From: Escherichia phage JLBYU43
Sequence record: NC_105512.1
DNA: 64,000 bases
Direction: 5' to 3' (one strand)
The first letter of the stretch is position 1; every line of letters starts with the position of its first letter. Below, piece after piece: positions 29,222 to 57,718 of this stretch. Under the pieces are notes generated by a model. That model had not been told where the DNA came from. It saw only the letters and a program-made list of their open reading frames with translations, and ran no database searches. The translations under genes were made by a program, and so were the position numbers.

Positions 29222-29236
29222 AACGTTTCCTTAAAT

Positions 29237-29311
29237 TGGTGCGGGATACGAGAGTCGAACTCGTGTCTACTGGTTGGAAGCCAGTTATTCTAGCCACTGA
29301 ACTAATCACGC
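29237..29311 (-). tRNA. tRNA-Gly (UCC)
   Basis: T-arm ACGAG-TTCGACT-CTCGT, CCA encoded, loop CTTCCAA. Confidence 0.6.
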
Positions 29312-29318
29312 ATTCGTT

Positions 29319-29394
29319 TGGCTGGAGAAGGAGGAATCGAACCTACCATTAACGGAGTCAAAGGCCGCTGTGCTAACCGTTACACTACTCTCCA
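29319..29394 (-). tRNA. tRNA-Gln (UUG)
   Basis: U1-A72 acceptor with discriminator G as in Gln tRNAs; loop CTTTGAC. Confidence 0.55.
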
Positions 29395-29400
29395 ATTGTT

Positions 29401-29476
29401 TGGCTGGAGTGCCTGGGATCGAACCAGGAACCTTCGGAGTCAGAGGCCGACGATCTGCCAATTGATCTACACTCCA
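29401..29476 (-). tRNA. tRNA-Gln (CUG)
   Basis: perfect acceptor TGGAGTG/CACTCCA, discriminator G, loop CTCTGAC. Confidence 0.55.
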
Positions 29477-29484
29477 ATAATTCT

Positions 29485-29685
29485 TCACTCTACAGGAACC
29501 GTGGCTATTGGTTCTGGTTCTTCTAGACGTTTGCCTTCATGATCTACACGAATAACACCACAACCTTCACAGATTACAACAGCACCGTAGCCTTCTTTAA
29601 CTTCGGCTTCTGTAATCAGACCAGAAAGATCACCAGTATCTCTACCCCACATATCAATGGAGCATTGTTTGCAGAAATCAGCCAT
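29485..29685 (-). CDS. small zinc-ribbon protein
   Basis: 66 aa with CxxC...CxxC. Confidence 0.45.
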   Translation of the reverse strand: MADFCKQCSIDMWGRDTGDLSGLITEAEVKEGYGAVVICEGCGVIRVDHEGKRLEEPEPIATVPVE

Positions 29686-29710
29686 ATTTTATTTCCTATT
29701 TAAGTTAACT

Positions 29711-29787
29711 TGGGGTGGCTAGTGGAATTCGAATCCACATAGGCCTGATTCACAATCAGGATCATTAACCAATTATGATATAGCCAC
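29711..29787 (-). tRNA. tRNA-His (GUG)
   Basis: extra 5' G (G-1), discriminator C, loop TTGTGAA, CCA encoded. Confidence 0.7.
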
Positions 29788-30255
29788 AATTGAAAACTCG
29801 CAGTGTTAGCGAAACCATCCTCAAATAGCATTTTCTAGAATACTAATCAAGTTATCTCCTATTGCACGCAGCTCAAGACGAGTACGAATTTTCAATTGTG
29901 GCGGCTCTCCGAAACTCATCACACTAACAACTAGTTGATTACACCTGGATTCTCGCCCAGGAAATTCTCTAGAAAGGCGCACCGTTACACTTTGAGCCAT
30001 TGAATGGGATGGTCTCTCATCCCTACTAACTACTTGATCCTTACGATCCGTCGGTTAGCACGAGCAGCGACCCTTCATATATTGTATAGTGCTCAGAAGG
30101 TCATTAGAAGCACTTATCAAGAAGCAGAAGGACTTGAACCTTCACGAGATAGACCATTTATCTCAGCCTCGTTTTCGGGTATCTTATGAGGAGTGGATGT
30201 TCCCCTTACGCCCTTTAGGAAGCCCCGTCTACCGATTCCGGCATACTTCAAGATT

Positions 30256-30350
30256 TGGAGGTAGGTAAGGGGATCGAACCCTTACACCGTATCACTACGA
30301 TCAACCGATTTCAAGTCGGAGTCCAGCGCCAGCCATTGGATTGACCTACC
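30256..30350 (-). tRNA. tRNA-Ser (UGA), long variable arm
   Basis: perfect acceptor GGTAGGT/ACCTACC, CCA encoded, loop CTTGAAA, 95 nt. Confidence 0.55.
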
Positions 30351-30362
30351 GTATAAATTGTT

Positions 30363-30456
30363 TGGCGGAAAAGATGGGAGTTGAACCCATAAGGCGGTAT
30401 TGCTACCACTCAACCGATTTCCAATCGGGTTTAGTCACCAGTCTATTTGCTTTTCC
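30363..30456 (-). tRNA. tRNA-Ser (GGA), long variable arm
   Basis: perfect acceptor GGAAAAG/CTTTTCC, CCA encoded, loop TTGGAAA. Confidence 0.5.
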
Positions 30457-31027
30457 GTTGTTCTGTTAATACTTTTGGGCTTAATCCGGTTAGTTTAGTA
30501 TATCGTCTACGTAAAGTGGACTCTGATACTTCTAGATCTTTAGCTGCCTTAACCCACCCCATTAATAATACCTTTTCAGTTATGTCTTCTAAGGACAATT
30601 CTGGTTTTATTAACTTTCCTGTAGGTTTTGGCTTACAATTTGTACATGTTACTGATCTCTGAAGCATTAGATTTCCACATAAGGGGCAAGGTACTCTACT
30701 ATCAGACCATCCATTATCTTTATTAGTTTTCTTCTGATGTTCTATTTTTGATAAAACTTGAAGATTATCTTTAGATAGATTCAGCCTATCTCTATCCTTG
30801 TGATCTACTTCTAATTCAGGGTCAAATAGATTATATAAGTCCCCAAATACATGAGAAATAATTCGGTGTATAAGTACCGAAGTTTGCTTACCATTTATCT
30901 GTAATTTTACAGCAGGGTATCCATCAACTATATATCTTGATAAAATTTTATTAGTAAATGTAGATAACACATCCCCTGTTTCATTTACTAAATACCCTGG
31001 TGCATCTTTTATTGGTACAAACTGCAT
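30443..31027 (-). CDS. HNH homing endonuclease
   Basis: NUMOD4-like N-terminus, HNH motif EVDHKDRDRLN, Cys-rich zinc ribbon. Confidence 0.7.
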   Translation of the reverse strand: MQFVPIKDAPGYLVNETGDVLSTFTNKILSRYIVDGYPAVKLQINGKQTSVLIHRIISHVFGDLYNLFDPELEVDHKDRDRLNLSKDNLQVLSKIEHQKKTNKDNGWSDSRVPCPLCGNLMLQRSVTCTNCKPKPTGKLIKPELSLEDITEKVLLMGWVKAAKDLEVSESTLRRRYTKLTGLSPKVLTEQRKSK

Positions 31028-31043
31028 ACATTACCCTATAAGT

Positions 31044-31128
31044 TGGTGGGGCTAGGGAGACTCGAACTCCCACGCATTTAAGCTACGGAATCTAAGGCCG
31101 TATTGTCTACCAGTTCCAGCATAGCCCC
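31044..31128 (-). tRNA. tRNA-Leu (UAG), long variable arm
   Basis: perfect acceptor GGGGCTA/TAGCCCC, CCA encoded, loop CTTAGAT. Confidence 0.55.
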
Positions 31129-31133
31129 AAATT

Positions 31134-31207
31134 TGGTGGAGAAAGAGGGAGTTGAACCCTCGTCTTCTGCGTGCAAAGCAGATGTTCTACCATTAAACTA
31201 TATCCCC
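31134..31207 (-). tRNA. tRNA-Ala (UGC)
   Basis: G3-U70 wobble (Ala identity element), loop TTTGCAC, CCA encoded. Confidence 0.6.
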
Positions 31208-31467
31208 AAATTCTTTAGTTTACTAAGGCTATTAGCTCGGTGTGCGTATTACCCTCAGACATTAGCCAGTAGAGGATAACCGCTCTTCACAAACCCGATA
31301 CACTATTCAGTTGCCGCTGAATCTAGTGGACTAATCTAGAACTTCTCCCGAGTCGTAGGGATTGTGCTTTTTGGCAGCCAGTCCTAGGTCGAGCTAATAC
31401 CTTAGTGAACTTTGATGAGGATTTCTCCTCATCAATTTATATAAATATTATAACAAGAAATTAAACA

Positions 31468-31827
31468 TTAAGCAAGTACATTTTTGCAGATTTCTTGTAT
31501 TTCCTTAACGTCACTAACGAAAAGGTAATCAGAGCTTCCAGAGTGCATACTCTGCATAACCACACCACCATCCGGTGCATCTTCTTTCAAAGTAATACCT
31601 AACCAGAACTTGGCAAAACTAGGTGTTACCTCACCTTGACTTGCCTTGAACACATCGCCTTCTGTGATCTCTTGACCAGTGGAGAGTCCCATGTATGGTA
31701 CGTTCAGATCAATATCTTTGTAGAACTCAGCTAGATCTTGCTCGAAATCCCAACCTTTAGAGATAGCGAACTCCATTGTTACATGACCGAAATAGCCTTG
31801 AACCTTGCTTGATAATTGCATTTGCAA
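31468..31827 (-). CDS. hypothetical protein
   Basis: 119-aa ORF. Confidence 0.5.
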   Translation of the reverse strand: MQMQLSSKVQGYFGHVTMEFAISKGWDFEQDLAEFYKDIDLNVPYMGLSTGQEITEGDVFKASQGEVTPSFAKFWLGITLKEDAPDGGVVMQSMHSGSSDYLFVSDVKEIQEICKNVLA

Positions 31828-31846
31828 TTCCTTATTTTGAGTTAAT

Positions 31847-31920
31847 TGGTACTCGGTGATAGAATCGAACTATCGCAACCGCCGTGTAAAGACGGGGTTC
31901 TCCCATTAAACTAACCGAGC
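31847..31920 (-). tRNA. tRNA-Val (UAC)
   Basis: T-arm GATAG-TTCGATT-CTATC, loop TTTACAC, CCA encoded. Confidence 0.55.
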
Positions 31921-31924
31921 AATT

Positions 31925-32002
31925 TGGTGGATTGCCTGGGATTCGAACCCAGAACTGACGGATTAAAGGTCCGCTACTCTTATCCAGTTGAGCTAGCAAT
32001 CC
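31925..32002 (-). tRNA. tRNA-Lys (UUU)
   Basis: perfect acceptor GGATTGC/GCAATCC, loop CCTTTAA (C at position 33), CCA encoded. Confidence 0.5.
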
Positions 32003-32466
32003 AATTTTTCTACTAATAATTTAAAAGCATCTAGTACAGGTACTTCAAACCATTCTCCAGATACTATATAATCTTTAAGAAGATTATGTAATTCTTTCTC
32101 TGTACGTCTTTTATCCGACGAAAATCTGAAATGGTATAGCTTGTAGTCTCTATTAGGTGAATAAGTTTGATAACTTGCTAACCTCTCATTCACATCTATA
32201 GTCATACCTATTTTATACATGCCTGGCCATGCTGGATTACCAATTACATATACAAAACCTTCCGTTATAGGTATTTTATGCTCCCTTTTATACTTTAAGA
32301 GATTTAAGGCTGCCATTCGATAACAGAATCTAAACTCTGAAGTTTTTAACTTACCTTCTTTACCTGAAATTTCGTTATATTTGCTCATATAAGCTCTTAT
32401 GAGCTTATCATCTATAATGAAGTTATCAGGAAGGTTTAAGGCAGATAAAACTTTATTAATTAGCAT
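31993..32466 (-). CDS. T5orf172-domain protein (GIY-YIG-like)
   Basis: motif VYVIGNPAWPGMYKIGMT...ERL...YQTYSP. Confidence 0.55.
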   Translation of the reverse strand: MLINKVLSALNLPDNFIIDDKLIRAYMSKYNEISGKEGKLKTSEFRFCYRMAALNLLKYKREHKIPITEGFVYVIGNPAWPGMYKIGMTIDVNERLASYQTYSPNRDYKLYHFRFSSDKRRTEKELHNLLKDYIVSGEWFEVPVLDAFKLLVEKLDC

Positions 32467-32641
32467 AGACTTCCTTAATAGAATAAACTTTTAAGTAAGG
32501 GTGATTAATACCAAATTCCGCCATCACTTCGTTTTCATCTTTACCGTAATGGGCTAGTGGATACTTCTTACGATCTTTGCTAGAACGCAGATCACTTACT
32601 TTTAAACGAAATAATTTCATTTCGAAATCCTTCTATTAAAT

Positions 32642-32719
32642 TGGAAGCGGGTGTAGGAATCGAACCTACCTCTTTCTAGCTTATGAGACTAGCGATCTCT
32701 ACCAGAGATCTAACCCGCA
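32642..32719 (-). tRNA. tRNA-Met (CAU)
   Basis: loop CTCATAA, T-arm GTAGG-TTCGATT-CCTAC, CCA encoded; 1-72 pair mismatched. Confidence 0.5.
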
Positions 32720-32725
32720 ATTGTT

Positions 32726-32803
32726 TGGTCTCCGTGGGAGGATTTGAACCCCCGACCCTACCGCCCCAAACGGAACGCTCTGGCCAAACTGAGCTACACG
32801 GAG
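32726..32803 (-). tRNA. tRNA-Pro (UGG)
   Basis: perfect acceptor CTCCGTG/CACGGAG, loop TTTGGGG, CCA encoded. Confidence 0.6.
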
Positions 32804-33119
32804 AATATTCTTTGTTAACTCACTTTATAAGATATATTATACAGAGAATTAAGTGAAATAGCAAATGAATTTTTAATAAATTTACTTATTGCGTAGGCCA
32901 CCTGGAGGGTTCAAGCCCCACGGCTGACAAAGAAGTTTGCGAGACTTCTCTTAAATGCCAGAATAGACCCGCCGATCTATCGGAACCTACATAATAAGTA
33001 AACTTTCGTTTACCTACACCTACCTGGTCGGGAGGATTTTCAGCGACTAGAACCGGCCGGAAACTCATCGCCTTGTTTACCCTGTAGTCCCACTATAAGT
33101 GACGCGACCTACAAAGATT

Positions 33120-33193
33120 TGGTGCGGTCGGAGGGAATCGAACCCTCAACTTCTGGTTGGCAACCAAAAATTATACCTTTTAACTACGAACGC
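33120..33193 (-). tRNA. tRNA-Gly (GCC)
   Basis: T-arm GAGGG-TTCGATT-CCCTC, loop TTGCCAA, CCA encoded. Confidence 0.5.
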
Positions 33194-33406
33194 ATAATGA
33201 GTCAATCTAGGTAGGACTTGAACCTACTATCACTTGTGCGGATTTACGAGAACCATTCTTTCACTCGAATCGAACGAGCTTCTACCCTCGGCAAGCTGGT
33301 GTCCCCTCTCCACCACGCTAGAATGATAATTAATGCCTGCTCCTTTGAATCAAGAAGTCCACCCCGGACTTTGGGTCTTTGCAGTACATCACGCTGCTCT
33401 GATGTT

Positions 33407-33483
33407 TGGTACACCCACTAGGACTTGAACCTAGAACCCTCCGCTTAAGAGGCGGTAGCTCTAACCAATTGAGCTATGGATGT
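33407..33483 (-). tRNA. tRNA-Lys (CUU)
   Basis: acceptor ACATCCA/TGGGTGT, loop CTCTTAA, CCA encoded. Confidence 0.5.
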
Positions 33484-33489
33484 ATAATT

Positions 33490-33542
33490 TGGCGGTACTA
33501 AGGGTAATCGAAACCCTACCTCTCCCGTGACAGGGGAGTACC
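33490..33542 (-). tRNA. compact tRNA-like element without D-arm (anticodon loop GUC, Asp-like)
   Basis: 53 nt: acceptor-like stem, hairpin CTCCC-CTGTCAC-GGGAG, T-arm AGGGT-TTCGATT-ACCCT, CCA encoded; no room for a D-arm. Confidence 0.3.
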
Positions 33543-33574
33543 ATTACCAAGCCAGCCCCGATCGCATAATTTAT

Positions 33575-33760
33575 TTACTCAGCTTTGAGTTTTTCGATAG
33601 CTTCCTCAACCTCTTTTAGAGCTTCACGACGCTCTACTTGACCTTGAAGTTCTTCAAGAAGTTCAGCTTTCAGAGCCTTAATAATATTACCACGAACCTT
33701 AATATTATTAATCATATTATCACGATCAGCTTCTAGTCGAGCAATTGCACGAGTTGTCAT
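33575..33760 (-). CDS. small coiled-coil protein
   Basis: 61-aa charged ORF. Confidence 0.35.
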   Translation of the reverse strand: MTTRAIARLEADRDNMINNIKVRGNIIKALKAELLEELQGQVERREALKEVEEAIEKLKAE

Positions 33761-33787
33761 ATCTATTTCCTCAGTTGTTAGTGAAAT

Positions 33788-33873
33788 TGGCGGGCCGTGT
33801 AGGAGTTGAACCTACTTTATCCTTGCGGATACGGATTAACAGTCCGGCGCTTAAACCGTTCAGCCAACGACCC
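33788..33873 (-). tRNA. tRNA with anticodon GUU (Asn-type loop) and long variable arm
   Basis: 86 nt; acceptor GGGTCGT/ACGGCCC, loop CTGTTAA, variable hairpin ATCC-GCAA-GGAT, CCA encoded. Confidence 0.5.
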
Positions 33874-34025
33874 TAAATTTATATTGCTGACTAGGATTTT
33901 CACCTAGACGGAGTTAGCACCGTAGCGTGTAGCGGCATACCTCTCCAAACCGTGCCTCATCTTTCAATTACTGAGGCAGTGTTCCTACGCGTGCCTGAAC
34001 TGTTTTAACAATTCTTTCAGCAAAT

Positions 34026-34101
34026 TGGACGACCGCATGAGATTCGAACTCACATAAAAAGGATTTGCAATCCTTCGCCTAAGCCATTCAGCCAACAGTC
34101 G
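34026..34101 (-). tRNA. tRNA-Cys (GCA)
   Basis: loop TTGCAAA on a perfect AAGGA/TCCTT stem, discriminator U, CCA encoded. Confidence 0.6.
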
Positions 34102-34282
34102 ATTTATCTTGTTTTTCGAGATCTTCAAATTCTAGATTTATAGAATGTCCTATGGACCTAGCATAATAGCTATCTCCAGCATCAGTATCTCTTTCAATTT
34201 GGTACAACCTGTACGCAACGATCGTACCTCTTCTCCTTTTCAGGGAGATACTAATCCTTCTCAGTTAAAGTTGCATATTATC

Positions 34283-34353
34283 TGGCAGGGGTAAAGGTAT
34301 TCGAAACCTTTTCATGGGTTTTGGAGGCCCACTAGCAACCTATGCGTACCCCA
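34283..34353 (-). tRNA. tRNA-Trp (CCA)
   Basis: 3' end CCCCTGCCA as in E. coli tRNA-Trp, loop CTCCAAA. Confidence 0.55.
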
Positions 34354-34362
34354 ATTATTAAT

Positions 34363-34437
34363 TGGCACACCCACGGAGAATTGAACTCCGATTCTCAGAT
34401 TGAAATCCTGATGTCCTAACCATTAGACGATAGGTGC
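34363..34437 (-). tRNA. tRNA-Glu (UUC)
   Basis: Glu-type D-arm GTCTAATGGTTAGGAC, loop ATTTCAA, CCA encoded. Confidence 0.55.
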
Positions 34438-34445
34438 ATTAATTT

Positions 34446-34526
34446 TGGTGGGGGATGGAGGACTCGAACCTCCGCGTGGTATACCCGGTCTACAGCCAGG
34501 CGCCGTCGCCACTGAGCCAATCCCCC
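34446..34526 (-). tRNA. tRNA, probable anticodon GUA (Tyr)
   Basis: perfect acceptor GGGGGAT/ATCCCCC and T-arm, CCA encoded; anticodon arm fold ambiguous. Confidence 0.45.
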
Positions 34527-34632
34527 ATATTTGAATGAAAAGTAAGTCGGTTAAACTCAAAGTGGAATATTTCAGGAAATCCTGACTTTACCCCTAAAAG
34601 CAACTCGCTTAATTACTTCTCATTCAGATATG

Positions 34633-34661
34633 TTTCCAAAGTAGATAACTATTATATCAAG
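34633..34661 (-). promoter_or_regulatory. sigma70 promoter upstream of the tRNA cluster (TTGCTC-17-TATAAT)
   Basis: consensus -10 and 17-bp spacer on the minus strand; a 13-bp-stem hairpin lies immediately upstream at 34662-34701; ~110-nt leader before tRNA-Tyr. Confidence 0.5.
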
Positions 34662-34715
34662 TTTTATGGCACTGAGCAAGTCAGATTTTAAAGAACTTGC
34701 TCAGTGCTATATCAG

Positions 34716-35009
34716 TTAATCAAATGAAGGAGTGACTTTCAAAGTGAATGGAAGTTCGAATACCTCTTCACCTTCATCAGTAACAGTGACTACTCGACCC
34801 TCTAGATTATTCATGCTGATTTCAACATCAGCCGTAGCATCAGGAGCCATACCAGCCTCAATACATTGAGCTTTGATCTCTGGAAGAAGTTCTACATTGT
34901 AGAAATAAAGCCACTCGATCTCACCTTCCCAACCACCCCAGGATTTACATACTGAGCTTTCAATACCAGTTGCTGTAACACGTTTTGACATTCTGATTCC
35001 TCTCATCAA
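34716..35009 (-). CDS. hypothetical protein
   Basis: 97-aa ORF. Confidence 0.5.
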   Translation of the reverse strand: MMRGIRMSKRVTATGIESSVCKSWGGWEGEIEWLYFYNVELLPEIKAQCIEAGMAPDATADVEISMNNLEGRVVTVTDEGEEVFELPFTLKVTPSFD

Positions 35010-35080
35010 TTTATATAACTATTATATCAGAAATTTAAGGCAAAAGGCAAGTACATTTTTAAAAATTCTGTTTGGAGGAG

Positions 35081-35287
35081 TTAAAGACCGGATTCATCAG
35101 CCAGATCTAGACCAATAAGGGTGATTGCCATGATTGCAGCAGCCTGTTCTTTTTCACTCACATCTTTAGCAGACGCGATAATCTTTTCAAATTGTGATTT
35201 AAAATCTGCTACTTCAGCTTCTAAACCAGCTTCAGCAATAATGCCTTTCACCATAATACGCTGCGTCATAATTTCAGGATTTGCCAT
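35081..35287 (-). CDS. hypothetical protein
   Basis: 68-aa ORF. Confidence 0.4.
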   Translation of the reverse strand: MANPEIMTQRIMVKGIIAEAGLEAEVADFKSQFEKIIASAKDVSEKEQAAAIMAITLIGLDLADESGL

Positions 35288-35462
35288 TTGTTTTCTCCAG
35301 TTTCATTTTTAGTATTTTGCAAACAAAGTCAATATCTTCATCCGTGCCTAGATCTCTATCTTCAAGGGTTGCCTTGAAATTTTTTGTTAGTTCCATAAGA
35401 ATAACTTCCCTGGAACGACGTGTTGGCGGAGGTGGATGTCTATACATCTTAATTCCTTAATT

Positions 35463-35537
35463 TGGTGGGTCGGAGGAGAATCTAACTCCTACTCGTTAGC
35501 TTATGAGGCCACCGCTTTAACTTTAAGCTACCGACCC
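35463..35537 (-). tRNA. tRNA with anticodon CAU (Met/fMet/Ile2)
   Basis: perfect acceptor GGGTCGG/CCGACCC, loop CTCATAA, CCA encoded; anticodon stem weak. Confidence 0.5.
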
Positions 35538-35543
35538 TATGTT

Positions 35544-35632
35544 TGGAGGAAGAAGTGGGAATCGAACCCACAAGGCTATATTTCAAACTGACAGATTAGC
35601 AATCTGCTGCAATACCGTTATGCTATTCTTCC
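35544..35632 (-). tRNA. tRNA-Ser (GCU), long variable arm
   Basis: perfect acceptor GGAAGAA/TTCTTCC, loop TTGCTAA, CCA encoded. Confidence 0.55.
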
Positions 35633-35653
35633 GAATTTATAAGATATATTATA

Positions 35654-36172
35654 TTAGAAATTTAGCTTCATAGCAAGAAAATTTTTCAAGTTTTCGGTAG
35701 ACATCTCATCCACATCTACAGGAGAAACAAATCCATTTAATTGTTTAGCAAATTTTTCACCTGCAGGATCATTATCCCCAACAGCTACCAATTTAAAAGG
35801 TAGTAATTTCAATTGCTTTAACAACGCTTTTCCAGGGGAAGAACCCAACATTGCTAGGGCTGGATAACCAGCATTATGTAATGCAACTGCCTTAAATACA
35901 GATTCAGCAATCAATACTACTTTTTCATCTCCATTGAGAGTTTCTAGTCCCCATACACACTGGGTAGTAGAATAAGTAAAATATTTAGCTTCAAAGGGAC
36001 ACTTACCATGACCTTTTGGAGCAGAAGGATTATAAGTTTGATAGCCCCTCAACATCCCAGAGAAATCATATAACGGGACTGTTAGCCATCCTTCCGGACT
36101 TAACCAGCAATGATATTTTTCTGTATCAAATCCCCTAGATAGAAGGTGCTGTGTTAGCTCATCAACACTCAT
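35654..36172 (-). CDS. Toprim-domain protein (primase-like)
   Basis: conserved Glu (LIAES) and DxD (VAVGDNDPAG) typical of DnaG-type Toprim. Confidence 0.45.
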   Translation of the reverse strand: MSVDELTQHLLSRGFDTEKYHCWLSPEGWLTVPLYDFSGMLRGYQTYNPSAPKGHGKCPFEAKYFTYSTTQCVWGLETLNGDEKVVLIAESVFKAVALHNAGYPALAMLGSSPGKALLKQLKLLPFKLVAVGDNDPAGEKFAKQLNGFVSPVDVDEMSTENLKNFLAMKLNF

Positions 36173-36210
36173 ATTTGATCTCCTAGTTAGTTTTATAAAT
36201 ACATTATATA

Positions 36211-36242
36211 GAAAAGCCCGCGCTCTCGGAGGAAACGCGGGC
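36211..36242 (-). terminator. rho-independent terminator
   Basis: AGCCCGCG/CGCGGGCT stem followed by a U-tract on the minus strand. Confidence 0.5.
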
Positions 36243-36267
36243 TTGTTTCGAAGATTACGTGTAACTA

Positions 36268-37284
36268 TTACTTATTACGCATATCCATAATCATCTGGCC
36301 ATCATAACCAGTACCTACAACAGTCTGAGGAACGCCACCCTGATATTTTTCAGCGCGTTTCATATCAACTTCCAGCTGCTTCCAACGAATCATTTCAGGA
36401 GTAATGGTACGTTGCAGAGCGGCGTTAGCTTCAGCTTCTTTCTTAGCTGCGTACAGTTTAGCATCTGCGTCACGTTCGTTAGCTACTGCCATATTTTCAC
36501 GAGCAGAACGATCAGCTTCAGCTTGCTTAACTTTCTGCTGTGCTTCTTGTTCAACACGAGCTAGTTCAGCTTTTGCAGCGTTAACTTGTTCTTCACGAAC
36601 TTTTGTGTTTTGTACCTGTTCCATGATTACCGGTGGCAGAGTAATATCCTGAAGGAATACTTGCTTAACGGTGTAACCATAAGGACGCGCGTACTCTTCT
36701 ACTTCTTGCTGAATAGCGGTTTGCAGTTGAGCCTGAATCTTAGCGTCGAACAGATCTTGTGCTTTTGGTACAGACTTACCAAACTCACGAATCGTAGACA
36801 GCATCTTCTCTTCAACGTACTTGTTCAGAGCTTGATCCTGAGTACCTGCGTTAATACGGTTAATCGGTGCCTTAGAACCATCAAACTGCAACATAACAGT
36901 CAAGTCAACAGTGGATTTAAACTTATCCTGGCTAGGAACCTGAAGTTTATCTAATTTTACAGCAATATCTTTTGTACTAAAAGTATCGAAAGATGCAAAC
37001 GGGTTTACAAGATGGAAACCAGGCAATACTGGATTAGGATCTACTTTACCCAGAAATGTTTGGGTTTTAACCGTACCATCAGAAACAATAGTATATGAAT
37101 TAAAAGCTAGAATCAAGCCTGCTAAACCAACTACAGCACCAATACCCCAACGTTTAATAGTATATGAATTAAAAGCTAGAATCAAGCCTGCTAAACCAAC
37201 TACAGCACCAATACCCCAACGTTTAATAGTACGAATTACTTTCTGCTCAGAAGTCAGTTCTTTCATATTTTTAGTATTAAACAT
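36268..37284 (-). CDS. SPFH/band-7 (prohibitin, HflC-like) membrane protein
   Basis: N-terminal TM anchor, SPFH core, C-terminal coiled coil; contains an exact 69-bp tandem duplication. Confidence 0.7.
   Translation of the reverse strand: MFNTKNMKELTSEQKVIRTIKRWGIGAVVGLAGLILAFNSYTIKRWGIGAVVGLAGLILAFNSYTIVSDGTVKTQTFLGKVDPNPVLPGFHLVNPFASFDTFSTKDIAVKLDKLQVPSQDKFKSTVDLTVMLQFDGSKAPINRINAGTQDQALNKYVEEKMLSTIREFGKSVPKAQDLFDAKIQAQLQTAIQQEVEEYARPYGYTVKQVFLQDITLPPVIMEQVQNTKVREEQVNAAKAELARVEQEAQQKVKQAEADRSARENMAVANERDADAKLYAAKKEAEANAALQRTITPEMIRWKQLEVDMKRAEKYQGGVPQTVVGTGYDGQMIMDMRNK
37087..37231. repeat. 69-bp perfect tandem duplication (2.1 copies)
   Basis: 37088-37156 is identical to 37157-37225; in frame, duplicating the TM segment of the SPFH protein. 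Confidence 0.85.
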
Positions 37285-37318
37285 ATGTTTCCTTTGTTTT
37301 AGTTACAGTTAATAAAAT

Positions 37319-37393
37319 TGGCCGAGGTGACAGGATTCGAACCTGCATAAAGGAATTTAGAAGACTCCTGCCTATCCCTTAGACTACACCCCG
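37319..37393 (-). tRNA. tRNA-Arg (UCU)
   Basis: T-arm GCAGG-TTCGAAT-CCTGT, loop CTTCTAA, CCA encoded. Confidence 0.55.
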
Positions 37394-54378: not shown

Positions 54379-54411
54379 AGCCAGGTTGCTAGTCGACCTG
54401 GCTTTTATTTT
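54379..54411 (+). terminator. rho-independent terminator after nrdD
   Basis: AGCCAGGT/ACCTGGCT stem followed by TTTATTTTATTT. Confidence 0.65.
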
Positions 54412-54412: not shown

Positions 54413-54441
54413 TTTGCTTTCAGCTAAAAATTTATGTATAA
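54413..54441 (+). promoter_or_regulatory. sigma70 early promoter (TTGCTT-17-TATAAT)
   Basis: consensus -10, near-consensus -35, 17-bp spacer, conserved leader into RBS. Confidence 0.65.
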
Positions 54442-54469
54442 TAGATTTATAAATTTAAGAGGAGGGTAT

Positions 54470-54829
54470 ATGAAATTAAAACCATTTATTGTTGTATCTA
54501 AACTAGGGCATTATCACGTAGGAGTAGATACAATTCAGGAAGCTATTTTTGCTGCTACAGGTGATTACTCATTACTAGAAGGTATTGGGTATCCTACACT
54601 ACTAGGCGACTTCGTAGAGCAAGAACTAGATATTACTGTCTATAATCCTATATATGAAGAACCTGAATACTTAAAAGAGACTCTAGAATTTGTATATTGG
54701 AACCACTTACAAGTATTTAATGTTACCTCTAATGGCACAGAGGATTTCTCTTCTGTTATTAAATGCCATATTAAACAAGTTTACTACGATTATTTCTACG
54801 AGGATATTGGAGCGGAGCTAAAAGTATGA
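54470..54829 (+). CDS. hypothetical protein
   Basis: start at ATG 54470 with a GAGGAGGG RBS directly behind the promoter. Confidence 0.5.
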   Translation: MKLKPFIVVSKLGHYHVGVDTIQEAIFAATGDYSLLEGIGYPTLLGDFVEQELDITVYNPIYEEPEYLKETLEFVYWNHLQVFNVTSNGTEDFSSVIKCHIKQVYYDYFYEDIGAELKV

Positions 54830-55029
54830 AAAACGTAAAACATCTTAAATATCGCTTAATTTACAACGGACGTATGGAAACAGAAGATCTAGCACAGCTA
54901 GCGATCAATTCAGATGAAGTTACAGTTCGTGCTTTGTCCATTGAGAAGCTGCGTGCTTCTTACGAAAATCGTATTATGGAATTAGAGGAGAAACTTTATG
55001 GCATTCTCGAGTCAGAAGCTACCAAGTGA
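54826..55029 (+). CDS. hypothetical protein
   Basis: 67 aa, ATGA overlap with the upstream gene. Confidence 0.45.
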   Translation: MKNVKHLKYRLIYNGRMETEDLAQLAINSDEVTVRALSIEKLRASYENRIMELEEKLYGILESEATK

Positions 55030-55243
55030 AAATGTTAGTCTTATTGACCTGAGTAAACTCAATGTAGAGTTTCAGGGGGTTTTAATGAAGCACTGGGAAA
55101 CTGGCTATAAGGATGGTGTTGAATCCTGTGCTACTATGCTAGAATTTATTGCTAATACCTTAGTGGAGAAAGGCAATAAAGAATTAGCTGAGCTGTTAGA
55201 CAGTATTGGGCAAAACTTCAGAGAGCAGGTGAAAAATGCGTAG
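54998..55243 (+). CDS. hypothetical protein
   Basis: 81-aa ORF. Confidence 0.45.
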   Translation: MAFSSQKLPSENVSLIDLSKLNVEFQGVLMKHWETGYKDGVESCATMLEFIANTLVEKGNKELAELLDSIGQNFREQVKNA

Positions 55244-56012
55244 ACTAATCATTGTTAGTGGTGCTGGTTTAAGTGTTGATAGTGGTATCCGTGCATTCCG
55301 TACAGATACTGCTAGTGGTAAAGCAATGTGGGACGAGTACGATCTAGAAGAGGTGTGTGATATTCATGCTTTTCGTGGCCAGTTCTACTGGAAAACCCAC
55401 GAGTTCTACAACAAGCGTCGTCAGGAGTTGCGGACTGTTGAACCTAACATTGCGCACCTTCGTATTGGGGAATGGTTCCAGCGGTATCCAGAAGCGGTAC
55501 TAAACATTACTACTAACGTAGATGACTTGCTGGAAAGAGCTGGTGTGCCGAAAAGTGAGGTTCTCCACGTTCATGGCTATTTACCGGAAGTTCGTATTAA
55601 GGAATTGCCAGACCGAAAAGAGTACATCCTAGATGTGGGCTATACTGCTATTGATCCTGATGAATTTTATTGGGCAAAGCCTAACGTTGTATTCTTTGGT
55701 GAAGCAGCCCCCGAATATGCTCTGATGCATGCCACTTTTGATAGTCTTACAGCTAACGATATGGTTATCGTGGTTGGGTGTAGTAACCAAGTTATCAACT
55801 TCAACTGGGAACTTTTTCCTGCACTAGCTCGTGGTACTAAGATGATGGTTGTTAACCCAACTATTAACTACTTGGAACAATCCCTGTACGAAGAGCGTGG
55901 TGTTACTGTATGGCGTGCTGGGGCTGCCGAAGTTTTCGGTAACAAACACTTTATTGGCCAGGTAGAAGCTTTTATGGAAGGAACTATTTATGCCCCAGAA
56001 AAGCATGTGTGA
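55236..56012 (+). CDS. SIR2-family (sirtuin-like) NAD-binding protein
   Basis: sirtuin motifs GAGLSVDSGIRAFR, VVFFGE and VVGCS; no CxxC zinc-ribbon insert visible. Confidence 0.65.
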   Translation: MRRLIIVSGAGLSVDSGIRAFRTDTASGKAMWDEYDLEEVCDIHAFRGQFYWKTHEFYNKRRQELRTVEPNIAHLRIGEWFQRYPEAVLNITTNVDDLLERAGVPKSEVLHVHGYLPEVRIKELPDRKEYILDVGYTAIDPDEFYWAKPNVVFFGEAAPEYALMHATFDSLTANDMVIVVGCSNQVINFNWELFPALARGTKMMVVNPTINYLEQSLYEERGVTVWRAGAAEVFGNKHFIGQVEAFMEGTIYAPEKHV

Positions 56013-56182
56013 TCTTTTAGTATGGCCGGACGGTAGTTGGTGCTACCGTTTCGAATTTGCTACCGATGACTTCTCATGGAAAAGTGATGATTTCTGCGTT
56101 ATCTAAGAGGATACAGCAGAATGGAAAGAGTTCCTTATTAAGGAGGGAGAGTATGGTGAAGAAGATTTTTAAGGGTATCTGG

Positions 56183-56338
56183 AAGGGTCTATTATGGTTT
56201 GTCAACCTAATCGGTATGATTACCATTTATTCTCTGTTCCTATCTGTTATGTGGGGTAAAGGTGAACTGAAGGTTCCAGTTCCTTTTACTGATGAAGTTA
56301 AAGTCTGGACGTGGGATGCTACTGGTGGAAATAAGTAA
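56183..56338 (+). CDS. small membrane protein
   Basis: AAGGAGGGAG RBS, one TM helix; start moved inside the track ORF. Confidence 0.4.
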   Translation, partial: KGLLWFVNLIGMITIYSLFLSVMWGKGELKVPVPFTDEVKVWTWDATGGNK

Positions 56339-56528
56339 TACTCCTGTGATTTTCCTGGATATTGATGGGGTGCTCAATTCGAGCATCTCTCACCATCATG
56401 CTCGAGATAATGAAAAGCTGTTCTTTGGCAGTGATTGGGTTTATAAGCCATTACTCCAGGCTTTTCAGAACTTCCTCAAACCTTCTCCAATAATGATTGT
56501 TGGGGTATCTTCATGGTTTTCTGTATGA
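56316..56528 (+). CDS. HAD-like fragment (motif I DIDGVLN), N-terminal part
   Basis: ends at an in-frame TGA; continues in the same frame as 56535-56831. Confidence 0.35.
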   Translation: MLLVEISNTPVIFLDIDGVLNSSISHHHARDNEKLFFGSDWVYKPLLQAFQNFLKPSPIMIVGVSSWFSV

Positions 56529-56534
56529 AATGAA

Positions 56535-56831
56535 ATGGAGAACGTTCAGATTATGACCGGACTCGGTTTGATCGATCGTTTTCTTGGTACAACAGATTTT
56601 ACTGGAGGTGGTTTATCTAGGGGTAATTCTGTTTTACGTTTTGTCGAAAAATATAAGCTCAAACATTGGTGTGTGCTGGATGATGCCGGTGCTATGATGT
56701 ATCAGTATCCAACGGTTATAGTCAATGGTAGAACTGGGATAAATCTTCAAGATTTAAGAGCTGTTAGCTATATGTTAGAATTTAGTCCAGATCTTGAAAT
56801 GTGTAAAGCCCTACAGCAATTTAAGGTGTAA
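56535..56831 (+). CDS. hypothetical protein (possible C-terminal part of split HAD-like protein)
   Basis: 98 aa in the same frame as the upstream fragment; contains VLDDAG. Confidence 0.4.
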   Translation: MENVQIMTGLGLIDRFLGTTDFTGGGLSRGNSVLRFVEKYKLKHWCVLDDAGAMMYQYPTVIVNGRTGINLQDLRAVSYMLEFSPDLEMCKALQQFKV

Positions 56832-56833
56832 AT

Positions 56834-57262
56834 ATGTTTAATAATGTATTCTCTAAAGAAGCTAACCCAATTTTGGTTAACTTTTGGCGTACTCTCCCAG
56901 CTAGCCTGTATAATGAGGCTATTAACTCTTTGAAAATATGGTGTGAGAATAACGAAATCTCCTTTGCTTTTAAAGATGATATTGATGAGGCCCCTTGTAT
57001 TGGTTTAATTGTTCAGGTAGAGGAGGGTCTTGAAGAGATTGTCGGCTGGAAAGAGTTAGATGAAATGGGCTTAGTTTTTGCATTAAATTATAAGCTGTTT
57101 ATGCCTGCTAAGCATCGCCTCGTTGTTAACTATAAAACTAGTGAGTCTCCTGGTTTTCAGGTTAATGAACGTGAGGGCTGGTCATATTCGCCCGAGGAAG
57201 TAAATGAAGGGATTCAGAAACTTCGTCGTTTCGGGTATATGATCCCAGGTTTAACTGCTTAA
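56834..57262 (+). CDS. hypothetical protein
   Basis: 142-aa ORF. Confidence 0.5.
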   Translation: MFNNVFSKEANPILVNFWRTLPASLYNEAINSLKIWCENNEISFAFKDDIDEAPCIGLIVQVEEGLEEIVGWKELDEMGLVFALNYKLFMPAKHRLVVNYKTSESPGFQVNEREGWSYSPEEVNEGIQKLRRFGYMIPGLTA

Positions 57263-57271
57263 GGAGGCAGA

Positions 57272-57667
57272 ATGGAACAAGTATTTTGGCGTCAGATAGA
57301 TCCTAGTTTGGTAGAGCGTGCTGAGGGGCTCCTTGCACATTGGTTGGGGGTTGACAAGGTTAGTGTAACATTTCCGTTTACTTCTGTAACAGACCCTAGT
57401 GTAGGTGTATTTGTGGACGAAGATGAAGATGATGGTTGGGAAGCTGACTGGAATGAATTGTCCAGCATGGGCTTGATTGTTGCCATCAACTTCTCTATAT
57501 TCCATCCACGTGGCTTAGCCATTACACGTGACCCCGAAACTGGTGAATCCCCTTATCTTTTGCAAGTAGAAGATGATATTTGGGAGTACACCGAAGATAT
57601 TCTCGAAGAAGCTAAAGGTCAATTAAATCGCATTGGGATCTATGTTCCAGGCCTAAATGATGATTGA
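57272..57667 (+). CDS. hypothetical acidic protein
   Basis: 131 aa, AGGAGG RBS. Confidence 0.5.
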   Translation: MEQVFWRQIDPSLVERAEGLLAHWLGVDKVSVTFPFTSVTDPSVGVFVDEDEDDGWEADWNELSSMGLIVAINFSIFHPRGLAITRDPETGESPYLLQVEDDIWEYTEDILEEAKGQLNRIGIYVPGLNDD

Positions 57668-57690: not shown

Positions 57691-57718
57691 ACCGAGTCAT
57701 TTTGGCTCGGTTTTCTCT
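57691..57718 (+). terminator. rho-independent terminator
   Basis: ACCGAG/CTCGGT stem followed by a T-tract. Confidence 0.55.

What the first reader, a model, noticed from the sequence alone, without database searches (positions are those of the whole stretch)
55236..56012. SIR2-family protein without the usual zinc-ribbon insert
Sirtuin motifs (GAGxS..SGIxxFR, FFGE, VVGxS) are present but I see no CxxC...CxxC module. SIR2 domains lacking the zinc ribbon occur in NADase-type effectors of bacterial immunity; in a phage early operon this could be an ADP-ribosyltransferase or NAD-manipulating factor acting on the host. The function cannot be inferred from sequence alone.
Basis: partly seen in the sequence, partly recalled or inferred. 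Interest (0 to 1): 0.55.

Follow-up and report, generated by a model that had tools for sequence, protein, structure and literature searches.

The report
Cysteine-free sirtuin of T5-like phages
This is the long-annotated "Sir2-like" gene of T5-like phages: an intact NAD-dependent sirtuin closest to the host deacylase CobB that keeps the small ribbon module but has lost its zinc-binding cysteines; its substrate has never been tested.

Summary
ORF 55236-56012 (+, 258 aa) is a real SIR2-family gene (Pfam PF02146 E=1e-23; PHROG 2162 E=2e-105). The window is a T5-like Epseptimavirus, and the protein is 100% identical to one already deposited as "NAD-dependent protein deacetylase of SIR2 family".

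The ribbon segment itself is not missing. It is 40 residues long (42 in E. coli CobB) and is modelled confidently as three strands. Only the metal ligands are gone.

The protein is not a defence-type SIR2 NADase: PADLOC gives no hit. Its best sequence and fold matches are the class III deacylases CobB, Sir2Af1 and SIRT5. The catalytic His113, Asn94/Asp96, the FGE loop and the class III Tyr58-x-x-Arg61 pocket are invariant, and the gene is under purifying selection.

My best guess is a CobB-like lysine deacylase (about 0.45). The main rival (about 0.3) is a published prediction for this phage sirtuin clade: Tpt1-like removal of RNA 2'-phosphate. I confirmed the RNA-repair neighbours behind that prediction (HAD_SAK_2 here; Rnl1/cREC/kinase in rV5-like phages). 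In this phage the HAD partner carries a nonsense codon.

Zinc-less phage sirtuins were already noted in 2016. Verdict: already known, and biochemically uncharacterised in the literature I could search.

The parts
55236..56012 (+). Sir2-like CDS, 258 aa: class-III-type sirtuin without cysteine zinc ligands
   Evidence: ORF. Pfam PF02146 E=1.1e-23. PHROG 2162. AF2 pLDDT 90.7. Foldseek top hit CobB 1s5p, TMt 0.87. 60 synonymous against 8 nonsynonymous codon differences vs TrudiGerster.
55227..55232 (+). Shine-Dalgarno-like AGGTGA, 3 nt before the ATG. The start overlaps the end of the upstream ORF (54998-55243) by 8 nt.
   Evidence: Read from the sequence and the ORF list. Inference only.
55260..55301 (+). 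NAD-binding motifs GAGLS (aa 9-13) and SGIRAFR (aa 16-22)
   Evidence: G9, A10, G11, S16, G17, F21 and R22 are invariant in 42 homologues. They align to CobB GAGISAESGIRTFR.
55407..55421 (+). Y58-N-K-R61-R62: the class III Tyr-x-x-Arg anion-binding acyl pocket
   Evidence: Aligns to CobB FYNARRR, i.e. Y92/R95 by the offset derived from PDB mutant names. Y58, R61 and R62 are invariant in A1. Y58 and R62 are invariant in the wider zinc-less set A3.
55509..55523 (+). T92-T93-N94-V95-D96: variant of the sirtuin TQNxD motif (Gln replaced by Thr)
   Evidence: N94 and D96 are invariant. Thr/Ser in place of Gln goes together with loss of ribbon cysteines across about 350 relatives.
55572..55577 (+). 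Catalytic His113-Gly114
   Evidence: Invariant in both alignments. Aligns to the CobB HG.
55575..55688 (+). Cysteine-free remnant of the zinc-ribbon module (aa 114-151), including the invariant G135-Y136
   Evidence: No Cys. 40 residues between His113 and the FGE motif, against 42 in CobB. Three strands, pLDDT 92-96. First CxxC aligns to I121/L124 and the second knuckle is gapped.
55692..55703 (+). F153-F154-G155-E156 (FGE loop of the acyl-lysine tunnel)
   Evidence: F153, F154 and E156 are invariant.
54434..57667 (+). Tightly packed transcription unit: orf131, orf67, orf81, Sir2, small membrane-like ORF, HAD_SAK_2, two DUF7415 genes
   Evidence: ORFs. Pfam and PHROG hits. The same order is seen in T5-like loci.
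54379..54403 (+). Terminator-like hairpin after nrdD, upstream boundary of the unit
   Evidence: 10-bp stem with 6 GC pairs and a T-run. A consensus match only.
57691..57711 (+). Terminator-like hairpin after the second DUF7415 gene, downstream boundary of the unit
   Evidence: 9-bp stem and a T-run. A consensus match only.
56325..56831 (+). HAD_SAK_2 phosphatase gene ('HAD domain in Swiss Army Knife RNA repair proteins'), the predicted partner of the sirtuin. Here it is interrupted by an in-frame TGA at 56526-56528.
   Evidence: Pfam PF18143 hits both halves; the intact TrudiGerster orthologue scores E=7e-19. CGA->TGA relative to five relatives. HAD lies next to Sir2 in 32 of the 35 T5-like IMG/VR loci, i.e. 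those with both nrdD and primase hits.

Best explanation
The gene encodes a catalytically competent, zinc-independent sirtuin derived from class III (CobB/SIRT5-type) enzymes. It is made from an early operon of a T5-like phage.

Shown here:
- SIR2 fold.
- A complete NAD-binding and catalytic set: GAG, S16/G17, F21/R22, N94, D96, H113.
- The FGE loop.
- The class III Tyr58-x-x-Arg61 pocket.
- A ribbon module kept without cysteines.
- Purifying selection.

Inferred mechanism: NAD+ binds the Rossmann domain, and an oxygen nucleophile of the substrate attacks C1' of the nicotinamide ribose, releasing nicotinamide. His113 then activates the ribose hydroxyl to resolve the adduct.

Most likely substrate (inferred from homology): an acyl-lysine, probably including acidic acyls such as succinyl or malonyl, which the Tyr/Arg pocket recognises in CobB and SIRT5. 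The target would be a host or phage protein, making this a phage-encoded CobB-like deacylase. The ribbon fold is presumably held together by hydrophobic and aromatic residues (I121, L124, Y136, W146) instead of Zn(Cys)4.
For: - Pfam SIR2 E=1e-23 over the whole model.
- The best solved relatives by sequence are CobB, Sir2Af1/Af2 and SIRT5. By fold they are CobB (TMt 0.87, rmsd 3.0), Sir2Af1 and SIRT5.
- The best NCBIfam matches are all 'NAD-dependent protein deacylase' models.
- Invariant catalytic and NAD-binding residues, the FGE loop and Y58/R61/R62 in 42 phage homologues down to 58% identity.
- Y58 aligns with CobB Y92. PDB entry 6rxs is a CobB variant carrying Y92A together with A76G, I131L and V187Y; that Y92 is an acyl-specificity residue rests on general knowledge of class III sirtuins.
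- 60 synonymous against 8 nonsynonymous codon differences vs TrudiGerster.
- The nearest cellular relatives are chromosomal zinc-less sirtuins of Marinobacterium, Oceanospirillaceae and Parahaliea, which sit in ordinary metabolic contexts with no RNA-repair genes. The zinc-less design therefore exists in a housekeeping setting.
- The protein is acidic (pI 5.2, net charge -11; family range 4.6-6.05), unlike what one expects of an RNA-binding enzyme. This is weak evidence.
Against: - No biochemical data exist for any member; none was found in five literature searches.
- Scores against the curated CobB equivalog models are far below cut-off (109 vs 243 bits; 91 vs 320), so it is not a CobB orthologue.
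- The clade has its own changes near the active site: Gln->Thr in TQNxD, V186-I187-N188-F189 where CobB has V-Y-P, an invariant C41 at the CobB A76 position, and an invariant G135-Y136 in the ribbon.
- In three unrelated phage lineages the gene sits among RNA-end-healing and sealing genes rather than near any protein-modification function.
- The host already has CobB, so the benefit of a second deacylase is unexplained.
Confidence: 0.45

Rival explanations
1. Tpt1/KptA analogue in tRNA repair, as predicted by Iyer, Burroughs, Anantharaman and Aravind (2022) for this phage sirtuin clade. The 2'-phosphate left on RNA after a 2',3'-cyclic end is opened attacks NAD+ C1' in the sirtuin active site. 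[quoted passage not shown] The neighbouring HAD_SAK_2 phosphatase heals RNA ends or processes the ADP-ribose product. This would protect the phage's (and host's) tRNAs against anticodon nucleases.
For: - The prediction is published for exactly this clade and context (PMC9503650).
- I confirmed the contexts independently:
  - HAD_SAK_2 lies directly downstream here and in 32 of the 35 T5-like IMG/VR loci that have both nrdD and primase hits.
  - rV5/PVP-SE1-like phages have metallophosphoesterase - Rnl1 - cREC - P-loop kinase - Sir2 in one block.
  - Jumbo phage BF has 2H - x - Sir2 - Nudix+cREC.
- Sirtuin and Tpt1 chemistry are formally parallel: an O-nucleophile attacks C1'', then the 2''-OH attacks (Tpt1 mechanism as stated in the PMC11417386 abstract).
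- An invariant Tyr/Arg/Arg anion pocket could hold a phosphate.
- The phage carries 23 tRNA genes.
- In DT57C, Sir2 and HAD were lost together.
Against: - It rests on gene neighbourhood only.
- The link is not universal. Klebsiella T5-like phages have Sir2 without HAD. In Phapecoctavirus, cREC lies about 82 kb from Sir2.
- In this very phage the HAD gene has a nonsense codon while Sir2 is intact.
- From general knowledge, T4-type Rnl1 repair does not leave a 2'-phosphate.
- The protein is acidic (net charge -11).
- The nearest cellular relatives have no RNA-repair context.
- No RNA ligase was seen in the Sir2 operon of T5-like phages.
Confidence: 0.3
2. One reading: an NADase or host-directed ADP-ribosyltransferase. 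Either it depletes or redirects host NAD+, or it ADP-ribosylates a host protein as SirTM-type sirtuins do, to take over or disarm the host.
For: - The NAD-binding and nicotinamide-cleavage residues are intact.
- It is expressed from the early region.
- NAD+ salvage genes lie near the homologue in other phages: NAMPT about 7-8 kb upstream in PVP-SE1-like phages, and NAMPT plus NMNAT 2-4 kb upstream in phage BF.
- Some T5-like phages carry NadR/PnuC (PMC13464706).
Against: - No similarity to defence-type SIR2 NADases (PADLOC 0 hits; only PF02146 in Pfam).
- There is no macrodomain partner as in SirTM operons.
- Invariant FGE and Tyr-x-x-Arg residues make sense only if a specific substrate is bound in the acyl channel.
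- An NADase would work against a phage that, from general knowledge of T5, depends on an NAD+-dependent DNA ligase.
- This window has no NadR/PnuC.
Confidence: 0.12
3. It acts on a small molecule or an RNA cap derived from NAD/ADP-ribose, for example NAD-capped RNA or an ADP-ribose-based immune signal. It would work with Nudix, 2H or cREC-type enzymes as a counter-defence.
For: - In jumbo phage BF the neighbours are an Acb1-like 2H phosphodiesterase and a Nudt16-like Nudix fused to cREC.
- cREC is predicted to process cyclic phosphates, including those of ADP-ribose derivatives (PMC9503650).
Against: - This is pure speculation from one lineage's context.
- T5-like phages have none of these neighbours.
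- No precedent is known to me for a PF02146 sirtuin acting on such substrates.
Confidence: 0.08
4. It is a decaying or catalytically dead relic whose loss of zinc ligands reflects loss of function.
For: - From general knowledge, mutating zinc ligands inactivates canonical sirtuins.
- The gene is dispensable in DT57C, where only a fused remnant is left.
Against: - Strong purifying selection: 60 synonymous against 8 nonsynonymous codon differences.
- All catalytic residues are invariant across about 1000 phage records and several phage families.
- The ribbon is modelled with high confidence.
- Zinc-less versions are conserved chromosomal genes in a bacterial genus.
Confidence: 0.03

Closest known systems
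E. coli/Salmonella CobB (class III sirtuin, NAD-dependent protein deacylase; PDB 1S5P, 6RXJ)
   Same: - Best sequence hit (E=4e-18) and best fold hit (TMt 0.87).
- Same NAD-binding and catalytic residues, FGE loop and Tyr-x-x-Arg pocket.
- Ribbon segment of nearly the same length: 40 vs 42 residues.
   Different: - About 27% identity.
- Far below the NCBIfam equivalog cut-offs.
- No cysteine in the ribbon, where CobB has four.
- TTNVD instead of TQNID.
- V-I-N-F instead of V-Y-P.
- An extra C-terminal helix at 237-248.
Human/zebrafish SIRT5 and Archaeoglobus Sir2Af1 (class III desuccinylase-type sirtuins)
   Same: Fold hits with E about 1e-14 to 1e-16. They share the Tyr-x-x-Arg signature; its role in binding acidic acyl groups is general knowledge.
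   Different: They bind zinc through Cys4, are 21-27% identical, and are cellular or mitochondrial enzymes.
Phage sirtuin clade of Iyer et al. 2022 (predicted RNA-repair sirtuins; T5-like 'SP15 type' with HAD, rV5/Mydo type, jumbo-phage BF type) = PHROG 2162
   Same: This protein is a member.
- PHROG 2162 E=2e-105.
- Homologous to the rV5, PVP-SE1 and BF proteins.
- It has the SP15-type HAD_SAK_2 neighbour.
   Different: Nothing, except that here the HAD partner carries a nonsense codon. The clade's activity is a prediction, not a measurement.
Sir2/CobB of Vibrio phages KVP40, phiSt2 and phiGrn1 (Skliros et al. 2016)
   Same: These are phage sirtuins for which absence of the zinc ligand site was already reported. 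T5 was named there as carrying a homologue.
   Different: They are only distantly related: Vibrio phage hits are about 41% identical over 80% of the protein. That paper proposed a salt bridge as the substitute and deacetylation of Acs as the function; neither was tested.
Defence-associated SIR2 NADases (ThsA, DSR1/DSR2, SIR2-HerA, SIR2-APAZ/pAgo)
   Same: Rossmann-type SIR2 superfamily, no zinc ribbon, NAD+ as substrate (general knowledge).
   Different: - No detectable sequence match (PADLOC 0 hits).
- No partner or sensor domains.
- This protein keeps the acyl-channel motifs (FGE, Tyr-x-x-Arg), which as far as I know those NADases lack (not checked here).
Tpt1/KptA RNA 2'-phosphotransferase
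   Same: This is only the proposed reaction logic: an NAD+-dependent, two-step transfer via the ribose 2''-OH.
   Different: It has an unrelated fold (ART superfamily). There is no homology, so the comparison is of mechanism, not of family.

Membership tests
SIR2/sirtuin family (Pfam PF02146) | Profile match above the curated cut-off across the whole catalytic core | tested here: met
   84.5 bits against a cut-off of 24, model positions 1-178 of 180.
SIR2/sirtuin family (Pfam PF02146) | Rossmann-fold large domain plus small domain, as in solved sirtuins | tested here: met
   AF2 pLDDT 90.7. Foldseek: CobB TMq 0.76 / TMt 0.87; 291 PDB hits with E<=0.001, and all 50 listed are sirtuins.
SIR2/sirtuin family (Pfam PF02146) | Catalytic His and the Asn/Asp of the xQNxD motif; GAGxS and SGIxxFR NAD-binding motifs | tested here: met
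   H113, N94, D96, G9-A10-G11, S16, G17, F21 and R22 are invariant. The Gln of the motif is Thr93.
SIR2/sirtuin family (Pfam PF02146) | Structural Zn(Cys)4 site in the ribbon of the small domain | tested here: not met
   No Cys between residues 114 and 152. None of 120 homologues has a CxxC. Alignment with zinc-bearing relatives.
SIR2/sirtuin family (Pfam PF02146) | NAD+-dependent deacylase (or ADP-ribosyltransferase) activity | not testable with these tools
   This needs an enzyme assay. No published assay was found.
Class III sirtuins (CobB/SIRT5 type) | Tyr-x-x-Arg in the acyl pocket | tested here: met
   Y58-N-K-R61 aligns to CobB Y92-N-A-R95 and is invariant in A1.
Class III sirtuins (CobB/SIRT5 type) | Orthology to CobB by the curated NCBIfam equivalog models | tested here: not met
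   Best scores 109 bits (cut-off 243) and 91 bits (cut-off 320).
Defence-type SIR2 NADases (ThsA, DSR, SIR2-HerA, SPARSA) | Match to a defence-system SIR2 profile | tested here: not met
   PADLOC-DB: 0 families at E<=1. Pfam lists only PF02146 at E<=1.
Defence-type SIR2 NADases (ThsA, DSR, SIR2-HerA, SPARSA) | Fused or adjacent sensor/partner (SLOG, HerA, TIR, pAgo-APAZ, large C-terminal domain) | tested here: not met
   It is a single-domain 258-aa protein. The neighbours are small unknown ORFs, HAD_SAK_2 and DUF7415.
SirTM (macrodomain-linked ADP-ribosylating sirtuins) | Operon partner with a macrodomain | tested here: not met
   No Macro hit among the eight neighbouring ORFs.
Phage 'RNA-repair' sirtuin clade (Iyer et al. 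2022; PHROG 2162) | Homology to the T5-like, rV5-like and jumbo-phage sirtuins | tested here: met
   PHROG 2162 E=1.6e-105. tblastn finds 999 phage records, including PVP-SE1, rV5-like phages and Serratia phage BF.
Phage 'RNA-repair' sirtuin clade (Iyer et al. 2022; PHROG 2162) | Conserved neighbourhood with RNA-end-processing genes (HAD_SAK in the T5-like type) | tested here: met
   HAD_SAK_2 lies at +1089 nt. Caveat: an in-frame TGA at 56526 interrupts it in this phage.
Phage 'RNA-repair' sirtuin clade (Iyer et al. 2022; PHROG 2162) | Removal of RNA 2'-phosphate with NAD+ | not testable with these tools
   This is a prediction only.

The most novel reading that the evidence does not exclude
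This clade could be the first sirtuin that works on nucleic acid. It would be a zinc-free sirtuin that removes 2'-phosphates from (or ADP-ribosylates the phosphate ends of) broken tRNAs with NAD+, convergent with the unrelated ART-fold enzyme Tpt1/KptA. It would form part of a widespread phage tRNA-repair counter-defence. The idea itself is already published as a prediction (PMC9503650); what would be new is its demonstration.
Probability: 0.28. Interest if true: 0.75.

Novelty: already known. Interest (0 to 1): 0.3.

Why it matters
Sirtuins of this clade are found in about 1000 of roughly 50,700 deposited phage genomes. These include T5-like, rV5-like, phi92-like and jumbo phages that are used in phage therapy and as defence-system models. 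I found no report of a measured activity for any of them.

If the enzyme is a deacylase, phages reset host or phage protein acylation early in infection. If it is a Tpt1 analogue, the catalytic range of sirtuins extends to RNA, and a new NAD+-dependent arm of phage tRNA repair would exist. That would tie phage NAD+ salvage (the NARP pathways) to translation defence.

The cysteine-free ribbon also shows that the 'essential' structural zinc of sirtuins can be replaced. The same solution is fixed in chromosomal genes of some marine Gammaproteobacteria.

For this scan, though, the finding is an ordinary, already annotated member of a known family.

Tried and rejected
1. Defence-type SIR2 NADase: rejected. 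PADLOC gave 0 hits, and Pfam reports only PF02146 at E<=1.
2. SirTM-type operon: rejected. There is no macrodomain neighbour.
3. Pseudogene or relic: rejected by the synonymous/nonsynonymous counts and the invariant catalytic residues.
4. 'Ribbon insert deleted': rejected. The segment length and the model show it is retained.
5. Literature: five searches found no experimental work on the T5-type Sir2. A sixth search, for biochemically characterised zinc-less sirtuins, returned nothing relevant.
6. Phage NAD+ salvage next to the gene: NadR-like and PnuC genes exist in TrudiGerster, but tblastn finds neither in this window. No argument can be built on them here.
7. Net charge as a test for RNA binding: the protein is acidic (pI 5.2). 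This is only weak evidence against the RNA hypothesis.
8. Is the clade phage-only? The genome-contig scan shows nothing above 45% identity in cellular genomes. However, a chromosomal zinc-less sister group exists in Marinobacterium and relatives, so zinc loss is not a phage invention per se.
9. I considered testing for non-orthologous displacement, i.e. KptA in place of Sir2 in Rnl1-cREC operons. The cREC search showed that cREC phages are largely the same lineages that carry Sir2. I did not pursue it further, so that test remains open.
Full report
WHAT THE WINDOW IS. The 777-nt finding is 100% identical to Phage vB_SabS_Sds2 and Salmonella phage PYC03, and 99.9% identical to several other Salmonella phages. 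The closest well-annotated relative, Escherichia phage TrudiGerster (Bas27), is a Demerecviridae/Markadamsvirinae Epseptimavirus, i.e. a T5-like phage. The protein is 100% identical to a Phage MSP1 protein already annotated as 'NAD-dependent protein deacetylase of SIR2 family'. A note in the PVP-SE1 record cites the T5 orthologue as YP_006930.1, 'putative Sir2-like protein'.

CHECK OF THE OBSERVATION. ORF 55236-56012 (+) is 258 aa. An AGGTGA lies 3 nt before the ATG, and the start overlaps the upstream ORF by 8 nt. Pfam SIR2 (PF02146) matches model positions 1-178 of 180 with E=1.1e-23. PHROG 2162 'Sir2' matches with E=1.6e-105.

The protein has two cysteines (C41, C182) and no CxxC, and none of the 120 closest database homologues has a CxxC either. 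So the factual core is confirmed.

The title, 'without the usual zinc-ribbon insert', is not accurate:
- The segment between the catalytic His113 and the FGE motif is 40 residues, against 42 in E. coli CobB.
- An AlphaFold2 model built on 42 homologues (mean pLDDT 90.7, pTM 0.87; block means 92-96 over residues 111-150) gives three strands there: 114-122, 130-133 and 146-151.
- In a MAFFT alignment with zinc-bearing distant relatives, the first CxxC falls on I121...L124. The second knuckle falls in an alignment gap, partly offset by a 4-residue insertion earlier.

The module is kept; only its metal ligands are gone. I infer, but cannot show without coordinates, that conserved hydrophobic and aromatic residues (I121, L124, Y136, W146) replace the Zn(Cys)4 centre.

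E. coli CobB itself shows C-x18-C-x-C-C rather than two CxxC pairs in the printed alignment. It is described as zinc-binding in PMC5107563.

WHAT KIND OF SIRTUIN IT IS. The best solved relatives by sequence are E. coli CobB (4e-18), Archaeoglobus Sir2Af2/Af1 and SIRT5. By fold, CobB is first (TMq 0.76, TMt 0.87, rmsd 3.0), followed by Sir2Af1 and SIRT5. NCBIfam returns only 'NAD-dependent protein deacylase/deacetylase' models, but far below their curated cut-offs (109 vs 243 bits; 91 vs 320). It is therefore a divergent relative, not a CobB orthologue. PADLOC, with 5027 defence-system models, returns nothing at E<=1.

Across 42 phage homologues down to 58% identity the following are invariant:
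- G9, A10, G11, S16, G17, F21 and R22 (NAD binding);
- N94 and D96;
- H113-G114 (catalytic);
- F153, F154 and E156 (FGE loop);
- Y58, R61 and R62.

Y58-x-x-R61 aligns with CobB 'FYNARRR'. Using the offset fixed by the PDB mutant names (A76, I131), this is CobB Y92/R95. From established knowledge of SIRT5 and CobB, that is the pair that binds the carboxylate of succinyl- or malonyl-lysine.

Against TrudiGerster the gene shows 60 synonymous and 8 nonsynonymous codon differences, so it is under purifying selection.

CLADE-SPECIFIC DIFFERENCES.
- TQNxD is TTNVD.
- The V-x-P of the acyl-lysine tunnel is V186-I187-N188-F189.
- C41 is invariant at the position of CobB A76.
- G135-Y136 in the ribbon is invariant, and is shared with the nearest zinc-bearing relatives ('IGY').
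- Among about 350 relatives, Thr/Ser at the Gln position goes with fewer than 3 ribbon cysteines in 173 sequences (6 exceptions). Gln goes with 3 or more cysteines in 137 sequences (10 exceptions, 8 of them with no ribbon cysteine). These sequences are related, so this is a clade-level trait and not independent evidence of coupling.

DISTRIBUTION. tblastn finds the protein in 999 phage records. These include T5-like phages, rV5-like and PVP-SE1-like Vequintavirinae, Phapecoctavirus, Klebsiella and Proteus myoviruses and, more distantly, jumbo phages and Vibrio phages.

An exhaustive phmmer search of 1.84 billion representatives gives 38 clusters at E<=1e-30. The closest of these lack ribbon cysteines. 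Clusters with CxxC...CxxC start at about E=1e-35.

A scan of 185,579 species genomes finds nothing above 45% identity. The best cellular hits are Marinobacterium sirtuins that are also cysteine-free, with TTNVDD and IGY. A follow-up search shows this is a conserved chromosomal gene in Marinobacterium, Oceanospirillaceae and Parahaliea. It lies on contigs of up to 4.5 Mb, in ordinary metabolic neighbourhoods with no phage or RNA-repair genes.

GENOMIC CONTEXT. In the window the gene lies in a compact unit, 54434-57667: three small unknown ORFs, Sir2, a small hydrophobic ORF, a HAD_SAK_2 phosphatase gene and two DUF7415 paralogues. Terminator-like hairpins at 54379-54403 and 57691-57711 flank the unit, which sits between nrdD and the primase gene. 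HAD_SAK_2 is the Pfam family 'HAD domain in Swiss Army Knife RNA repair proteins'.

Across 62 IMG/VR loci:
- HAD sits 0.8-1.3 kb downstream of Sir2 in 32 of the 35 T5-like loci, i.e. those with both nrdD and primase hits.
- It is missing in the Klebsiella and Pectobacterium T5-like lineages.

In rV5/PVP-SE1-like phages the order is metallophosphoesterase - RNA ligase 1 - cREC - P-loop kinase - Sir2 - ATP-dependent DNA ligase - MazG-like. NAMPT lies 7-8 kb upstream.

In Serratia jumbo phage BF the order is NMNAT/Nudix - NAMPT - ... - 2H (Acb1-like) - x - Sir2 - Nudix+cREC.

In Phapecoctavirus the neighbours are unrecognisable, and cREC is about 82 kb away.

These contexts reproduce what Iyer et al. 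2022 described. They proposed that this 'distinct clade' of phage sirtuins removes RNA 2'-phosphates like KptA/Tpt1 (PMC9503650). Skliros et al. 2016 had already noted the missing zinc site in Vibrio-phage Sir2/CobB proteins and listed T5 among carriers (PMC5107563).

HOW IT MOST LIKELY WORKS. Shown here: an intact sirtuin active site and acyl-channel signature in a stable, cysteine-free fold. Inferred: NAD+ is bound, an oxygen nucleophile of the substrate attacks C1' and releases nicotinamide, and His113 activates the ribose hydroxyl to resolve the adduct.

Two substrates fit.
- (a) Acyl-lysine (deacylase, about 0.45). Points in favour:
  - homology;
  - the invariant FGE and Tyr-x-x-Arg residues, whose only known role is to hold an acyl-lysine with an anionic tail;
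  - the housekeeping context of the zinc-less cellular sister group;
  - the acidic protein (pI 5.2, net charge -11).
- (b) RNA 2'-phosphate (Tpt1-like, about 0.3). Points in favour:
  - the recurrent RNA-repair neighbourhoods in three unrelated phage lineages;
  - the formal parallel between sirtuin and Tpt1 chemistry;
  - the 23 tRNA genes of this phage;
  - the joint loss of Sir2 and HAD in DT57C.

  Points against:
  - the linkage is broken in two lineages;
  - no RNA ligase was found in the Sir2 operon of T5-like phages;
  - in this phage the HAD gene carries a CGA->TGA nonsense codon at 56526 while Sir2 is intact.

NADase or host ADP-ribosylation (about 0.12), small-molecule or cap processing (about 0.08) and a dead relic (about 0.03) are less likely, for the reasons given under the rival explanations.

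VERDICT. The proposed link to immune NADases is not supported. The gene is an already annotated member of a widespread phage sirtuin family. Its zinc-less nature and a possible RNA-repair role are both in the literature. I found no report of its biochemical activity, and that is the only source of interest.

Noticed in passing
window 56325-56831 (stop codon at 56526-56528): The HAD_SAK_2 phosphatase gene downstream of Sir2 is split by an in-frame TGA. Five relatives (MSP1, STWB21, HMD-P2, Ob_P, TrudiGerster) have CGA (Arg) at this codon. Codons after the stop still show 25 synonymous against 7 nonsynonymous differences vs MSP1. This points to a recent nonsense mutation, a sequencing error, or read-through.
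   Followed up: yes
L153 (Escherichia phage DT57C) 2968-3240: The ORF annotated 'sir2 (defective)' is a fusion remnant of Sir2 residues ~172-207 and HAD residues ~128-168. Both genes were lost together, so both are dispensable for growth of that phage.
   Followed up: yes
PHROG phrog_18062; L150 (Salmonella phage HMD-P2) 3081-3596: phrog_18062, labelled 'Sir2 (NAD-dependent deacetylase)', actually matches the C-terminal half of the HAD protein. The HMD-P2 HAD gene is annotated 'Sir2'. This looks like an annotation error, probably spread from the DT57C fusion remnant.
   Followed up: partly
L002 (Escherichia phage inoa) 8776-9489: A second gene annotated 'putative Sir2-like protein' has no SIR2 Pfam hit. 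It is homologous to PVP-SE1 gp112, annotated as nucleotide pyrophosphohydrolase, so this is probably a mis-annotation.
   Followed up: partly
window 56834-57262 and 57272-57667: Two tandem DUF7415 paralogues, very acidic (pI 4.7 and 4.05), follow Sir2/HAD in nearly all T5-like loci examined (34 of 35), including those that lack HAD. Their function is unknown.
   Followed up: no
window 27669-37393 (- strand): There is a cluster of 23 tRNA genes. In TrudiGerster the equivalent region also holds a NadR-like NMN adenylyltransferase and a PnuC transporter (the NARP3 NAD+ salvage pair of PMC13464706). tblastn finds neither gene anywhere in this window.
   Followed up: partly
window 56057-56338: A small ORF (phrog_11166, unknown function) with a hydrophobic, membrane-like stretch lies between Sir2 and HAD and overlaps the HAD start. 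Relatives annotate two short ORFs here.
   Followed up: no
L069, L154 (Marinobacterium chromosomes), match at 8001-8723: Chromosomal cysteine-free sirtuins with T[TS]NVDD and [IL]GY motifs are conserved in Marinobacterium, Oceanospirillaceae and Parahaliea. They sit in ordinary metabolic contexts and form a cellular sister group of the phage clade.
   Followed up: partly
Sir2 residues 92-96 (window 55509-55523) and relatives P0001-P0386: Loss of ribbon cysteines goes together with Gln->Thr/Ser in the TQNxD motif. Thr/Ser occurs with fewer than 3 Cys in 173 sequences and with 3 or more Cys in 6. Gln occurs with 3 or more Cys in 137, with 1-2 Cys in 2, and with no Cys in 8. This is a clade-level trait and its functional meaning is unknown.
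   Followed up: partly
L066 (Serratia phage BF) 7281-7727: The 2H-family gene two genes upstream of Sir2 matches Pfam 'Anti-CBASS protein Acb1' (E=4e-15). It lies a few kb from NAMPT and NMNAT genes, so this region could be an NAD or counter-defence island rather than an RNA-repair one.
   Followed up: no
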